Positions 12,001 through 60,100 of a stretch of 64,000 nt of DNA are shown here, piece after piece. Location of the stretch: positions 75,020,001 to 75,084,000 of the forward strand of contig OZ260662.1 in NCBI GenBank assembly GCA_965285935.1, written 5' to 3'. The position numbers are program-made. This stretch comes from Ophelia neglecta. Taxonomy: Eukaryota. Each line of letters starts with the position of its first letter. Position 1 is the stretch's first letter.

Positions 12001-15000
12001 GGCATGAAGCTTGAAAGAGATGCCCTGGAAATATGTCGTCCCATGAGTGTCCTGCGGGGAAACATTGACAATTTTGTCAGGTAAAAGGATTATTTCCCAC
12101 CAGTTCGGCCTCAAATGTATAAATATTCCCAGTTTGGGTCCCAACTGGGTTGTACCGGCCGGGTTTCCCACGTGCGCAAAGCAGCGATTTTTCTTAGTTC
12201 TGACACTAACCTAACCCTTTAACATTGCGTATGTGGTTAATCGGCGCCGATGAAAACCCGACATTGTATGCTCTTGTGGTTTTCTAGGACCTGCCTGCGA
12301 GCAACACGTGAAGTGCCTACGGTCCGCGCATTATTCTTGGTCATCGCTCTGAATTTGAGCATGGTGGCATATGTTCAGAAATCGGTTGCCTTTTCCACTA
12401 TTTGCACAGAAGTCAACCCTGTATGAATCATCAATCGATTATTGCTCAAGTGGTTTAAATAGTATATACGACAAAAGATAAATAATATGCAAACATGATT
12501 GATTGTGAATGAGACATTTGATATTGTATGAAAGTCTGCTAATCTCATGTGGAATGTCGATATTTGTTGGACTGGGAAATATACATACTGAAACGAATGG
12601 ATTACTGATTTCCCTGTTAAGTATCGAATCGTGTTCAGAATTGCGACACGTTGCTGCATGTTGTTTATGATTTATGCCGGTGCAGATTCACATGGCCCGA
12701 GGAGGGCTCCGTTGGGGCACCGCCTCGAGGGATGTTGCTCCCTACCCCAGGGACGGCCGAACATCAAGTGTAAGCTCGGCTAACAACAAGGAGAAACGTA
12801 TACCGTGTAAAGAGTGCGTAGCCTTGCTTGGGGAACGAGACACTAGGGAAAATGGATTGGAAACTGAATTCAATGGGAGTAAACTTCGGGAAATGCGTGA
12901 CTTCCGGCCACCGCCATTTTCTCGTGACCTCAGCCTTCGCCGAGCGGGATCTAGGGGAAGTCTCATTGACCGACGGAGCTCCCTTGGGGTCATTCCCGAG
13001 AGAAGGGGTTCAGCTCCTACTGCTAGGATTTCCTCATCTCCCGCCAGACGGAGCTCCCTTAGTGCCCGAGTGATGATTACGCCATCTAGGAGGATGCAAG
13101 CAGCTAGTCCAGAGCTGTGGGCGATGAACGGGTCGTTTGGACGGAGGCGATCCAGCATTTTCCAAGCATTGGTGAGTTCGATTATGGTACGATAACAAAT
13201 CAAACCGAACCAGTGATACATGCCTTGCATTGAAAGAAAAAGGTTAGGGGACACCCAGATTGGTTTATTATGCCTCTTGGTTATTAGTTCGAATGGGTCG
13301 CCACTTATTTGGCCCAGTTTGTTTCGAATTTATGTAGTACACGTGGCGATCTCGTTATGACATTCGACATATTTGCCGCCACACTTAGCCCTGTAATTTA
13401 ATATTGCATGCCATGGTACAATTTCCCCCAAATTAACCCACTTCGATTGGCATTATATATTAAATACATCAAATCATAACATTCTCCCTTCAAGAATTAT
13501 CGCCAAGCCTCGGGCTTTTACCCGAAACCAGCAATGCCATTAAAAGATAATTGATTAAAGCTACATCAACCGTATTATTCCATTTCACTAGACACCACTT
13601 ACTGCACTTCGCTTTTAAAGCGGAATTAAATAATATTTTTTCTTTATATTTTTCTTTGACGCAGTCTGTTTATAAACACTCGTATACGTGTATAGAATCC
13701 GCAAAGCCCCATTTCACGATGTTTCTATGAGAAATAAAACTACACTTCCCAATTCCAGGGTATACTTCAAACAGCCAAATACTTCGTCATCGAAGCATAC
13801 AGCTTGTTTTTAGATCGTTTAATTTCCTTTGTTTGAAACAAAAATCATATCAATGCGTGACTCTAATCGAATGATGTCCTAGTACGTCTTTTCTTTGGCT
13901 TTGTTCGATGACTATTTTATCTCTGTTACGAGAGGTTTTGTGGCTTCCTGTCTGCCACTGCCGATTCCAATGGATGGATTCTTTACCTGCGTGCCAACTT
14001 GTTGCAGCACACTGTGAAACAGGGTTATGTCTACCTGCCCGGAAATGTGGCAAAATGTCAAGTCTGCGTGTAGATTGATGTAAAATGTAGTCAACCTTTG
14101 ATATTGTGACATCTTTTATAGGAACCAGTGCCACTGAGGCCTAGCATTTGTTGCAAAGCACCATAGAATTAAGACAAACTATAGCTGAATGCCAATTCGA
14201 GGCATGCATTATCCATAAAAGTCTATGAACACAACTTGTTTGGCTTTTAATAAGAAGACCCTGTAACAAAAAAATGTATTATTCTTAAAATGGCTTTGAC
14301 GAATCGTATCACGTTCCAAAAACAAAAGTTTATACCCACGCTGCAGCATTGGATGCACCTGAATAAAAGTACGTGGTGTAGAATAACTACCAGTTGCTCG
14401 TTGCCCATTATATCTTTCGTCAGAGTTAAGGAAAAATCGACTTGCTATTGGTCATTCCATGCAGGGCTTTCTTCTCTTCTCACATCATGTATAATGCATT
14501 TCAGTGAACGAGAAGTCGTGGCCCTTAATCATGATACATGGAAAAAACGAGAAATTGCCTGCTACTGAATGGACATGGGACCTGTTGTTTATGGGCCCGC
14601 TGTTGAATTTGGGGTCGGTTTAATGGTTATACTCTTGATAGTTGGCTGTACTACAGCAAAAACAAAACAGGGGTGAATACCAGGCAGACAAAGAAAAGTT
14701 ATGAATCTAAAATAGTCTACCTCGGTTGGAAATCACCAGAAACAAGCAGTCACCGACCCCATTGATAAAAGATATTATATGACAAAGGGTTCTTACCTTT
14801 TTAGCGGAGCTTGAGAGAAAACAGCTTTGTGTTAACGGCGAAAGCGAAAGCTGTGGCGAAAGCCTCTTAAAAGGAGCTAGCATGATCACAATAGTAACCC
14901 TACTTTTACCGTTTGAGAAGGGCCGGGTTAAAAAATGACTGATATTATAGATTATTGTACTACCAATGCTGCTTTCGCCGCACCTTTCGCTTTCGCTGTG

Positions 15001-57100: not shown

Positions 57101-60100
57101 TTCGGACCACCAAGGGGCAGCCAAATACTGGTGTGATTATGGAGGTGGTCTGTTTCGACAGGTTATTTATCATTGTCGAGAGTGTGCAGTATGTACTTAT
57201 ATTTGTAGTCTGTATGGATTGGTGGTCCGAATATAGAGGTGCTCTTTAGGACAGGTTTCACTGTAATAGATACAAGTAACTTGACTCGACTGTGCTTGGA
57301 CCAAGTGACTTGTTTATCCGACAAGTCATCTCGCCAGCCACGATATTCTCGTCGTAATCCACGTAAAACCCTAAAACATAAACAACAACCTTTATTCAAA
57401 TGATGTCACTAAGGAATTGACTTTTGTGCATAGAATCCTGAACATTGCATGACCGCACGTTGCTCTCATATTTTGATAATCAGATAAAACTAGTATTCGT
57501 ATAAAGTGAAAGTATGCATGAACATTAAAAACATTGGTTTTCTGGGACAAACTGTATTGGGCTGCACGTATACATATTTCTAAAAATGACCAACAGGCAT
57601 GCAGCAGCAGGTTGTTTGCTATTTAACCAAAGGGACAGGCTTGAATTGACCCTTCATATATTGATCACGGACCAACACACAGCTTGTCTATTCTGTAGTA
57701 ACGTCTCGTTCCTTCTGTTTCACTGCTATTTGATATATTAGATCTTCCTTTCCTCCTTTTGCCGTAGGTAGTCATGGAACCTTAAAATTCATACCCTAAG
57801 GGCCGCTTTTGTTCTGCCGTAATATGAAGATCCTATTCAGCTCGAGTAGGGTTTGCAACACGAGATCCCAGGTATTTTACACGGTAATGCCTCATTCTTT
57901 ATACAACTACCGACGTTTTGCAAGGCACACCCACCAAGTCTAGCGACAGCTAGGATCGACAGGAAACTTCCAGATGCTTAAATTGCGAAACAAGTAATAA
58001 AACAAACTGTTCTTACAGTTTCTAGGACAGATTGGGTTAATGATTTATTTATTGAGTTGAATCTTTTTTGTCCATATGATTGCTGCCTGGTGTTTTCTTT
58101 TTTGAACTAAATGATTCCTTGGCGACTTATTTAAGGACTATGTGACTGTTATTAAGTCCAGGCCTACGTTGACAAGATAATTCCCCTCTACCTTTTTTAT
58201 TGTAATATTCGAAAATTTCCATCCCGCAACTACAGTCGAAATTCAGTCTAATACGATGTATTTGCCGTCCAAATCTTGTGACTAGGATTTCACTGATCGA
58301 TTTCCTCGATAAACTACTTATGTCGCTAACTCGTTTAGTGAACCTGTCTTTGTTCTCAAGAACGAGGCTATATTTGCTATCGGGAAAGCCGCCATACGTC
58401 TCCGTCCACGAACAGCCATAGCAACGTATCCTAACCATTGACCTAATATTATCAAATTGAGAAATTTCCGCCAGATACAAATCCTGTTTGCTGTGGTCAA
58501 ATATCACTGTACTGTACGTAGAAGTCGTGAGCAGGACGACTATCCGAGGCGCTTGACCAAAACCCAGGGGAGTGTCAGTGAAGCAGTGCTCTTAAAATGG
58601 TATAGCTACTCTAAAATACTTTTAATCGGGAAACTTTTTGGGTCCCTTCTATTGTTATTAACTATCCATGTGCTTCGACTTGATGACATCATGTGACACC
58701 TAAATTTATGTAAATGTGTTTTTTTTTAAAAATAGCTTTTGGGGTAGCTTTCACGTTAGCGTCTACAGAAAACTTAAAGGTAGTCTCGTTGACTGAATAC
58801 GTTTTTTACCATCTTTAATTTGCATACTACTATGTTCTGGCCTGTTAAAATTATCTGATCCAGGAACCGGCATACGTGTCTTACCTGACAGTTCTTATAA
58901 CGTATAATAATGCGACCCTGGACTTGATGAAGGACCGGAAAACGAGTCGGCGAGTCGTGTATTGCGATGCCAAAAGCTAAGCAATTAAAGGTAAGAATCT
59001 GGAGGTCCAGACTTATGTGAATACGACTGTCAAGAATTTTAATGATGAGACCTGGACCATGCCCTGATTATGTGATCCGTGTAGGGACACACTGTTTGGC
59101 ACTCGTCAAATCCATATCGTGTCCTTAGTGCTCTTATAATTTGCTGTTAATATACGTGCATAATTTGAACGTCGAAAGGTCCATAATATCCTAGGATATG
59201 TTCAATTTGGATTAGGAACTATAGTGTACATTGAATAAGACAGAGTTCTATTATAACAGGATGATAAAAAATATATAGACTTGTATAATTATATGCCTAC
59301 CTAAACATGCTTGAATATAATTACAACTATTTTATTCATTTGTCTGACGGAAATTCTGTATACATACGTGTCTGAGTTTAAGTTGAAAGATGTACCTTAC
59401 TCTTCTTGAACACGAGAAACGTGTTTTTCATATCTGATTTTTAAGTAAGTTTAGAAAGAAAATTGACTCTATACTCTTAAAAGCTTTAAGAGAAATGTTG
59501 AAGGCATACGAAAAAGGTAAAATACAGACCAGCGGCATATCAATGGTTTCATGACAAAAAAAGCACTGAGCAACATTTCTTGGTCATTGGTCCATTTCTG
59601 CATTCGACTGTAAGGCCTACCAGATCCAGGGCACCTTATTGGCAGATGTTTATTATTAATGATATTGTCTTTACTGTCATCGATGCAAAGCCATTCTTAA
59701 GTAGCTCCTATGTTGGTCTTTTTGTTGACTGTCTTTGGCATGAATGCTCCCCTATCATTTCCGTCTTATCTATGATTGATGGGGTGCATTTAATGTCAAG
59801 CAGTATTGGTCGATTAATATCTGAGCCCGGTACTAATGTACACATCCCTTCGGTAGTAGCCTTTGCGAAATACCTGATTATGGCTTTCTCCTTCATATGG
59901 GTTAAGGTGTGATATTACAACCAACCTAAATTATCGTAGAATCAAATGTCAATTTATGTATTTATACAATCAATGGCCAGTGACGTGCCTGGGCTTCATT
60001 CAGGCCAATTAGCGTCATAATCCGATGCCCACTGCTTTGTCAACATGAAACGTGACGCTCACTATGTTGTTTGACGTCACTAGCTACCACTTTTGAGCGT

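What the first reader, a model, noticed from the sequence alone, without database searches (positions are those of the whole stretch)
12686..58990. Array of phase-0 plus-strand exons with PKA-type motifs: candidate multi-promoter gene with swappable phospho-regulated N-termini
Seen: unrelated exons 36-42 kb apart (12686-13171/18381-18866 and 54528-54833) each have an in-frame ATG near the start, several R-R/K-x-S-hydrophobic or related motifs and a phase-0 donor. Two much weaker ATG-to-donor candidates are also phase 0: 45831-45896 (basic, presequence-like RGLH) and 58967-58990 (MPKAKQLK|GTAAGA). I saw no folded-domain exon in the window. Inference: these are alternative first exons splicing to a common downstream exon, an architecture known from PDE4, PFKFB and hexokinase loci. 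I cannot identify the gene, and the 54.5-kb exon could instead be an internal exon.
Basis: partly seen in the sequence, partly recalled or inferred. Interest (0 to 1): 0.65.

Follow-up and report, generated by a model that had tools for sequence, protein, structure and literature searches.

The report
Duplicated phospho-site-rich 5' coding exons
Three real plus-strand coding exons, two of them near-identical tandem copies, encode disordered arginine/serine-rich protein ends full of kinase target motifs, but the gene they belong to and how they are joined cannot be told from this window.

Summary
The two small candidates do not stand out from chance.

- **Exons A and B.** A (12686-13171) and B (18381-18866) differ at 13 of 486 bases, while their flanks differ at about 20%. 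The frame is open in both copies and dN/dS is 0.20. Identity collapses 7 bases after a GTGAGT donor.
- **Exon C.** C (54528-54833) has one relative in the protein sets, at 63% identity. That match starts at Met19 (54582) and ends at the donor.
- **Motifs.** RRxS motifs exceed what composition predicts: A has 5 against 0.70 expected. The two basic sites in C are kept in the relative.
- **Small candidates.** 45831-45896 and 58967-58990 are ordinary: the plus strand holds 82 ATG-to-GTAA phase-0 stretches and the minus strand 62.
- **Context.** No Pfam domain occurs in the window apart from an intact minus-strand LINE.

It is untested: no transcripts and no downstream sequence are available. A and B are duplicates, not distinct N-termini. 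The gene is unidentified. This looks like an ordinary architecture, of modest interest.

The parts
12686..13171 (+). Exon A: 162 codons, disordered Arg/Ser-rich peptide with four distinct RRxS-hydrophobic sites. ATG at 12692, donor TTG|GTGAGT in phase 0.
   Evidence: Differs from B at 13 of 486 nt while flanks differ at about 20%. 8 synonymous against 5 non-synonymous changes, dN/dS 0.20 (Fisher P 0.0049). No Pfam family. AF2 mean pLDDT 51, pTM 0.13.
18381..18866 (+). Exon B: tandem copy of exon A, same length, frame, ATG (18387) and donor. Differs from A at 5 amino acids.
   Evidence: No Pfam family at E<=1 except a chance HECT_2 match.
12640..12685 (+). 46-nt tract identical in both copies (18335-18380 in B), T-rich and ending in CAG. 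Either a 3' splice-site region or a core promoter/5'UTR.
   Evidence: no difference from 12640 to 12738; pyrimidine fraction 0.59, 71st percentile of all AG sites; out-of-frame ATGs at 12658 and 12667, in-frame ATG at 12674.
11157..13413 (+). Duplicated block holding exon A. Its partner is 16935-19105, offset about 5.7 kb.
   Evidence: 11808-13413 against 17506-19105 at 85.6%, and 11157-11593 against 16935-17365 at 82.6%. No terminal inverted repeats bound the block.
11309..11494 (+). Conserved non-coding block about 1.2-1.4 kb upstream of exon A (about 17088-17265 upstream of B). Candidate promoter, leader exon or enhancer. An 8-nt indel breaks any shared reading frame.
   Evidence: 11401-11500 is 92% identical against about 75-80% around it; alignment. 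No Rfam family.
54528..54833 (+). Probable start codon at 54582 (Met19). Donor GAG|GTAGGT in phase 0. Conserved sites RRGS and RKAS.
   Evidence: P0004 is 56/89 identical, starting at Met19 and ending at ...STRE. The last 33 residues have 2 differences; motifs; poor acceptor context. AF2 pLDDT 53.5, pTM 0.17.
45831..45896 (+). Judged chance.
   Evidence: No Pfam family for its ORF 45798-45917.
58967..58990 (+). Judged chance.
22947..27082 (-). Intact non-LTR retrotransposon lying between exons B and C, antisense to them: a 1246-aa ORF (23342-27082) and a T33 run (22947-22979), which is its poly(A) tail.
   Evidence: ORF. RVT_1 E 4.5e-33, Exo_endo_phos E 1.3e-11. T run.

Best explanation
The window covers the 5' part of one plus-strand protein-coding gene of a non-human, invertebrate-like genome. 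The gene's identity is unknown and its domain-coding exons lie beyond base 64000.

Exons A and B are a tandem duplicate pair. Exon C is an unrelated exon. Each carries its own start codon and ends in phase 0. I infer that they are alternative 5' coding exons, each splicing to the same downstream exon. A and B are possibly fed by short non-coding leader exons about 1.2 kb upstream.

The peptides are intrinsically disordered, basic and serine-rich. They carry clustered R-R-x-S sites, so they would act as phosphorylation-controlled N-terminal regulatory tails for PKA-, PKG- or AKT-type basophilic kinases. A and B give almost the same tail from two transcription units. C gives a different one.

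- **Shown:** the exons are real, under coding constraint and phase-compatible; the motifs are enriched; two sites in C are conserved.
- **Inferred:** one gene, separate promoters, a common acceptor, phosphorylation.
For: **Coding constraint on A and B**
- 13/486 differences in the exon, against 195/1008 in the flanks.
- 8 synonymous against 5 non-synonymous changes in plus frame 0. The other five frames give 1-5 synonymous and 7-12 non-synonymous changes and contain stops.
- dN/dS 0.20, P 0.0049.
- Identity ends 7 nt past the donor.

**Exon C conserved in another species up to the donor**.

**Motif enrichment and conservation**.

**Predicted disorder**.

**In favour of separate 5' starts**
- C's acceptor context is poor: pyrimidine fraction 0.36, 10th percentile.
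- Met19 of C has A at -3 and G at +4 and is residue 1 of the relative's ORF.
- A and B have an ATG in codon 3 of the conserved frame in both copies.
- The proximal upstream 385 nt of A and B are better conserved than the downstream intron, P 0.0026.

**In favour of one gene**
- No other coding-like feature lies between B and C or after C.
- The only large insert there is a LINE in antisense orientation.
Against: - **No direct data.** There is no transcript, cap or junction evidence, and no sequence past 64 kb, so the common exon is hypothetical.
- **Chained reading is possible.** A's donor and the CAG at 54527 are frame-compatible, and the 18 codons before Met19 are open. A or B followed by C in one mRNA is therefore not excluded.
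- **A and B may be internal exons.** The 46-nt perfectly conserved, T-rich, CAG-ended tract looks like a 3' splice site. Out-of-frame ATGs at 12658 and 12667 argue against a long 5'UTR there.
- **Conservation is not only protein-level.** Synonymous sites (dS 0.069) are far better kept than the flanks (binomial P 7e-5). Gene conversion contributes, so part of the exon-specific conservation is not purifying selection on the protein.
- **No orthologue of A/B.** Among 1.84 billion representatives, 3 proteins scored E<=0.001. Two are repeat proteins, and one shows a 39% match over about 50 residues.
- **C's start evidence is soft.** The relative's ORF start may only reflect the first ATG chosen by an ORF caller.
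Confidence: 0.45

Rival explanations
1. One chained transcript. A and/or B are internal or second exons that splice into exon C at 54527|54528 and read on in frame. The peptides are consecutive parts of one long disordered N-terminal region, not alternatives. A and B may be used in a mutually exclusive way, as tandem-duplicated exons often are.
For: - All three exons are symmetric (486, 486 and 306 nt; phase 0 at both ends) and read through without stops.
- CAG precedes each of them.
- A and B have a perfectly conserved 46-nt upstream tract with a moderate pyrimidine content.
- Tandem exon duplications are linked to mutually exclusive choice (PMC9013439, abstract start as shown in the listing).
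Against: - C's acceptor context is pyrimidine-poor, at the 10th percentile.
- The relative's ORF and the detectable conservation start only at Met19.
- The frame match plus 18 open codons would arise by chance roughly one time in eight (my estimate, not a tool result).
- The exon length is a multiple of three, so the reading frame does not enforce mutual exclusion.
Confidence: 0.17
2. Two genes. A and B belong to a young, lineage-specific gene, partly built from a THAP9-type transposase fragment, whose small remaining exons lie unrecognised between 19 and 54 kb. Exon C starts a different, older gene.
For: - A and B have no orthologue in the protein sets, while C has one.
- Residues 37-89 of A resemble P0007: 38% over 53 aa, E 1.7e-4 against the whole library.
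- P0007 itself matches Pfam THAP9_C (E 6.1e-6, 26.4 bits against a cut-off of 24).
- A and C share no similarity.
Against: - No ORF with any family match and no G+C-rich coding-like stretch lies between B and C. The G+C peaks there are C-rich low-complexity DNA.
- The sharply conserved donors of A and B need an acceptor.
- G+C and GC3 are similar in A and C (0.56/0.52 and 0.57/0.56), against 0.34/0.31 in the LINE.
Confidence: 0.2
3. A and B are not functional exons. They are open reading frames in a duplicated segment, kept alike by recent gene conversion. The motif clustering is a by-product of an Arg/Ser-rich, G+C-rich sequence.
For: - Synonymous divergence (0.069) is well below flank divergence (0.23-0.30), as gene conversion would give.
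- No homologue was found.
- An antisense ORF is open too.
Against: - The conserved tract coincides with the ORF on the 3' side to within 7 nt of a consensus GTGAGT donor.
- The substitution pattern favours one frame only, dN/dS 0.20, P 0.0049.
- Both copies keep 162 open codons.
- RRxS count exceeds composition-matched shuffles, P 0.0003.
- The antisense ORFs run into unconserved flank and end differently in the two copies.
Confidence: 0.1

Closest known systems
Multi-promoter genes with alternative 5' coding exons, such as PDE4/dunce, PFKFB and hexokinase loci
   Same: Widely spaced 5' exons on one strand. Each has an ATG and a donor in the same phase. They encode unstructured N-terminal peptides with basophilic-kinase sites, and no domain exon lies nearby.
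   Different: No PDE, 6-phosphofructo-2-kinase or hexokinase domain, nor any other, is present in the window. The common exon, promoters and junctions are unseen. Two of the three exons are near-identical copies and not distinct N-termini.
Tandem exon duplication with mutually exclusive use (PMC9013439 and PMC9741552; only the listing and abstract starts were seen)
   Same: Two adjacent homologous exons of identical length and phase within one locus, both kept open.
   Different: The spacing is 5.2 kb and the duplication includes at least 1.5 kb of upstream DNA with its own conserved block. The copies differ by only 5 of 162 residues. The length is a multiple of three. The exons may be 5' exons rather than internal ones. 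Mutual exclusion is untested.
THAP9 / P-element transposase C-terminal region (Pfam PF22824)
   Same: Residues 37-89 of exon A (C-K-E-C-x-A-L-L ... R-x-F-R-P) align to P0007, a protein that matches THAP9_C.
   Different: Exons A and B do not match the Pfam model. No further transposase pieces lie next to the exons. No terminal inverted repeats bound the block.

Membership tests
Alternative-first-exon (multi-promoter) gene | Two or more 5' exons, each with its own ATG and an open frame to a donor | tested here: met
   A: 12692 to 13171. B: 18387 to 18866. C: 54582 (or 54552) to 54833.
Alternative-first-exon (multi-promoter) gene | All donors in the same phase | tested here: met
   Phase 0 at 13171, 18866 and 54833.
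Alternative-first-exon (multi-promoter) gene | Each 5' exon has its own transcription start | not testable with these tools
   Only indirect hints. Upstream 385 nt of A and B are better conserved than the intron. C has a poor acceptor context. Against: an acceptor-like conserved tract and upstream ATGs before A and B.
Alternative-first-exon (multi-promoter) gene | A common downstream acceptor exon | not testable with these tools
   No candidate in 54834-64000. No Pfam match among the plus-strand ORFs of at least 44 aa there. Sequence past 64 kb is not available.
PDE4 / PFKFB / hexokinase genes | Catalytic or regulatory domain of the family encoded at the locus | tested here: not met
   No such Pfam family in 346 ORFs scanned or in the exons themselves. 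This covers the window only.
Tandem-duplicated (mutually exclusive) exons | Adjacent homologous exons of equal length and phase | tested here: met
   486 nt each, 97.3% identical, same boundaries.
Tandem-duplicated (mutually exclusive) exons | Only one copy is included per transcript | not testable with these tools
   No transcript data. The length is a multiple of 3, so the frame does not enforce exclusion.
Basophilic-kinase (PKA-type) substrate region | R-R/K-x-S/T motifs, more than composition predicts | tested here: met
   A: 5 against 0.70, P 0.0003. C: 2 against 0.26, P 0.023.
Basophilic-kinase (PKA-type) substrate region | Sites conserved in relatives | tested here: inconclusive
   C: RRGS and RKAS are both kept in P0004, so 2 of 2. 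Only one relative is known, and none for A or B.
Basophilic-kinase (PKA-type) substrate region | Serines are actually phosphorylated | not testable with these tools
   Needs phosphoproteomics or a kinase assay.
THAP9_C domain (PF22824) | Match to the Pfam model | tested here: not met
   P0001 has 0 families at E<=0.1. P0002 has none but a chance HECT_2 match at E<=1. The link runs only through P0007.
Immunoglobulin V-set domain | Significant match to V domains and a beta-sandwich fold | tested here: not met
   PDB hits to nanobodies have per-domain i-Evalues of 4.6-120 in the three best matches shown. No Pfam V-set match. The AF2 model has no strands.

The most novel reading that the evidence does not exclude
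A lineage-specific N-terminal module was born in part from a THAP9-type transposase fragment and then acquired a cluster of RRxS sites. It was later duplicated together with its upstream control region. Gene conversion keeps the two copies nearly identical, so one conserved gene (the one that owns exon C) can attach the same phospho-switch tail from two independently regulated promoters, and a different tail from a third.
Probability: 0.12. Interest if true: 0.5.

Novelty: new member of a known kind. Interest (0 to 1): 0.3.

Why it matters
If the model is right, the locus would be one more case of a gene that picks between phosphorylation-controlled N-terminal tails through its choice of promoter. 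It would add two twists: a recently duplicated, concertedly evolving pair of 5' exons, and a possible transposase-derived piece in that exon.

For annotation, the practical value is firmer. The window holds three real coding exons that protein-homology methods would miss. One of them has no detectable relatives, so transcript evidence is needed to build the gene model.

Tried and rejected
**Searches that found little or nothing**
- Exon A against proteins of 285-2000 aa: none.
- Exon A against all 1.84 billion representatives: 3 hits at E<=0.001.
  - P0005 is a satellite-like repeat protein. Its 24 weak stretches add up, at 24% identity. Rejected.
  - P0006 is a repetitive protein. Rejected.
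  - P0007 is kept as a weak lead.
- Exon C against proteins of 180-2000 aa: one hit, P0004.
- The C+P0004 alignment against proteins of 43-179 aa: none.
- ESM Atlas, for both exons: no usable hit.
- PDB, exon A: one chance hit at E 0.95.
- PDB, exon C: many nanobody and antibody V-domain hits, but per-domain i-Evalues are above 4. Rejected as chance.
- Rfam and tRNA scans: nothing.
- tblastn of the exon peptides against the window: no further diverged copies.
- The 101-aa ORF at 52367-52669 with RRT/RRIGS: no ATG and no in-phase donor. Rejected.
- Other ATG-to-donor stretches of at least 40 codons (1362-1487, 19790-19954, 55133-55267): background G+C and no motifs.
- G+C peaks at 37.4-38.6 kb are C-rich low-complexity DNA.

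**Steps that could not be made**
I redid it ORF by ORF.
- No collection of eukaryotic genomes or transcripts was on hand. TBLASTN in related species therefore stayed undone.
- I searched each exon on its own.
- Paper searches for THAP9 exonization and for PDE4 first exons gave nothing usable.
- Supplementary files were not consulted.

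
Full report
**Setting.** The window has 35-44% G+C in 2-kb steps and no N. It has no tRNA or Rfam match. It holds an intact non-LTR retrotransposon on the minus strand: a 1246-aa ORF at 23342-27082 with RVT_1 at E 4.5e-33 and Exo_endo_phos at E 1.3e-11. A T33 run at 22947-22979 marks its poly(A) tail. The exon peptides have no identical or near-identical match in the large protein sets. 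I therefore take the contig for a non-human, invertebrate-like eukaryote. The organism is not identified.

**Observation, exons A and B.** 12686-13171 and 18381-18866 each translate into 162 residues without a stop.
- They lie in a duplicated block, 11157-13413 against 16935-19105, at 83-86% identity.
- Inside the exon only 13 of 486 bases differ. The Jukes-Cantor distances by segment are as follows:

| Segment | Distance |
|---|---|
| 11808-12299 | 0.226 |
| 12300-12585 | 0.168 |
| 12586-12685 | 0.131 |
| Exon | 0.027 |
| Downstream of the exon | 0.275-0.30 |

- Identity is perfect from 12640 to 12738. It collapses 7 bases after the donor TTG|GTGAGT.
The other five frames give 1-5 synonymous and 7-12 non-synonymous, and contain stops.
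- Nei-Gojobori counting gives dN 0.014, dS 0.069 and dN/dS 0.20 (Fisher P 0.0049).
- Synonymous sites are themselves far better kept than the flanks: 8 of 121 against a flank rate of 0.193, binomial P 7e-5. Gene conversion, or constraint at the nucleotide level, therefore acts on top of protein-level selection.
- The antisense ORFs over the exons (195 and 170 aa) run into unconserved flank and end differently in the two copies. I take them for a by-product of G+C-rich coding sequence.

**Observation, exon C.** 54528-54833 gives 102 open codons inside a 144-codon ORF.
- One relative was found, P0004, a 192-aa ORF call from an ENA contig. It matches at 56 of 89 positions.
- The match runs from Met19 of the exon (54582) to the last exon residue (...NSTRE). 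After that P0004 reads on into unrelated sequence.
- The last 33 residues differ at 2 positions. This is the pattern of an orthologous exon with the same donor.
- Exon C is unrelated to A.

**Motifs.** Exon A has 5 RRxS matches, which are four distinct sites: DRRSSL, ERRGSA, ARRSSL and GRRRSSI.
- Composition-matched shuffles give 0.70 (P 0.0003). RRxS-hydrophobic is 4 against 0.21.
- In all six-frame ORFs of at least 30 aa, the window holds 24 RRxS in 57,214 residues. Ten are in the A and B ORFs and one is in C.
- Exon C has RRGS and RKAS, 2 against 0.26 expected (P 0.023). Both are kept in P0004.
- Neither peptide matches a Pfam family.
- AlphaFold2 gives no fold: mean pLDDT 51.2 and pTM 0.13 for A from a single sequence, and 53.5 and 0.17 for C from two sequences. 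Models this shallow are weak evidence, but they agree with disorder.

**Weak candidates.** 45831-45896 and 58967-58990 exist as described.
- ATG-to-phase-0 donor stretches of 8-61 codons are common. For GTAA donors there are 82 on the plus strand and 62 on the minus. For GTRAG donors there are 34 and 17.
- Their G+C is at background level and they hold no motif. I treat them as chance.

**Surroundings.** Pfam scans of stop-to-stop ORFs found nothing reaching a curated cut-off.
- One search covered 150 of the 191 plus-strand ORFs of at least 40 aa from 27.3 kb onward. I left out exon C's own ORF (scanned as P0003), two ORFs inside exon C, three in the C-rich low-complexity tract at 37.45-37.89 kb, and 35 of the shorter ORFs (40-52 aa). 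Two sub-threshold matches appeared, Rad50_zn_hook and ACT_5.
- One search covered 74 plus-strand ORFs of at least 50 aa before 23.4 kb, out of 87 listed. I left out A and B, which were scanned separately, and 11 ORFs lying in or just beside the LINE's span. It also covered 76 minus-strand ORFs of at least 58 aa.
- One search covered the other 46 minus-strand ORFs. Together searches covered 122 of 122 minus-strand ORFs outside the LINE.
- tblastn of the exon peptides found no further copies in the window.

**First exon or internal exon?**
- For C:
  - The 22 bases before the CAG are pyrimidine-poor (0.36, 10th percentile of 3411 AG sites).
  - Met19 has A at -3 and G at +4.
  - The relative's ORF starts at that Met.
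  - This favours a 5' exon that starts translation at 54582. The relative's start may, however, only be the ORF caller's first ATG.
- For A and B the picture is mixed.
  - An ATG sits in codon 3 of the conserved frame in both copies.
  - The 385 bases upstream are better kept than the downstream intron: 55/385 against 57/237 differences, P 0.0026.
  - Against that, the 46 bases before the exon are identical, T-rich and end in CAG. They also hold out-of-frame ATGs at 12658 and 12667.
  - One reading reconciles these points, as an inference. A short non-coding leader exon upstream splices to the CAG at 12685, and translation starts 6 bases later.
  - A block at 11309-11494 (about 17088-17265 in copy B) is 92-98% identical, but an 8-base indel breaks any common frame. 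It is a candidate for such a leader or promoter. I found no convincing conserved donor in it.

**Gene identity.** Unknown. All three capped word-index protein searches and the single representative search are spent. I searched each exon separately. I did not build or search a joined peptide.

**A lead on origin.** Residues 37-89 of exon A align to P0007 at 38% over 53 residues, with E 1.7e-4 against the whole library.
- P0007 matches Pfam THAP9_C (E 6.1e-6, 26.4 bits against a cut-off of 24).
- Exons A and B do not match that model.
- No other transposase pieces flank them, and no terminal inverted repeats bound the duplicated block.
- Part of the exon may descend from a P-element-type transposase. 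This is a lead, not a result.

**Verdict.**
- The exons and their motifs are real. My confidence that A, B and C are coding exons is about 0.9.
It is not demonstrated.
- A and B are duplicates rather than distinct tails.
- The comparison with PDE4/dunce, PFKFB and hexokinase loci rests on recalled knowledge, and no defining domain of those families is in the window.
- The link between tandem exon duplication and mutually exclusive use is taken from the listing and abstract start of PMC9013439. I did not read the paper.
- I searched the literature only for the concepts named. I make no claim about what is or is not in print for this locus.

Noticed in passing
window 22947-27082 (-): Apparently intact non-LTR retrotransposon. 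It has a 1246-aa ORF with endonuclease and reverse-transcriptase domains, a roughly 360-nt 3'UTR and a 33-nt poly(A) tail (seen as T33 on the plus strand). It lies antisense to the exons, in what would be their intron.
   Followed up: partly
window 11309-11494 and about 17088-17265: Non-coding block 92-98% identical between the two duplicated units, against about 80% around it. An 8-nt indel rules out a shared reading frame. It may be a promoter, leader exon or enhancer of exons A and B. No Rfam match.
   Followed up: partly
window 12794-12910 and 18489-18605: The middle of exons A and B (CKEC..ALL...RxFRP) resembles a protein that matches Pfam THAP9_C (P-element-type transposase C-terminal domain). 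The exons themselves do not match the Pfam model.
   Followed up: partly
window 12686-13171 against 18381-18866: Synonymous divergence between the two exon copies (0.069) is three to four times lower than flank divergence (0.23-0.30). This points to gene conversion or nucleotide-level constraint confined to the exon.
   Followed up: partly
window 54570-54668: Exon C residues about 15-47 (WYRMEP...EAV...G...YPDQFRG) weakly resemble the FR2-CDR2 stretch of antibody V domains in PDB searches. Per-domain E-values exceed 4, and neither Pfam nor the AF2 model supports this. Judged chance.
   Followed up: yes
window 12742-13329 (-) and 18437-18949 (-): Long antisense ORFs (195 and 170 aa) overlap exons A and B. 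They extend into unconserved flank and end differently in the two copies, so they are probably a by-product of the G+C-rich sense frame.
   Followed up: partly
window 37480-37800; 42029-42134; 51942-52208; 15459-15565: Simple DNA: a C-rich low-complexity tract, a (GA)53 microsatellite, a 32/71-nt minisatellite and a 53-nt tandem duplication.
   Followed up: no
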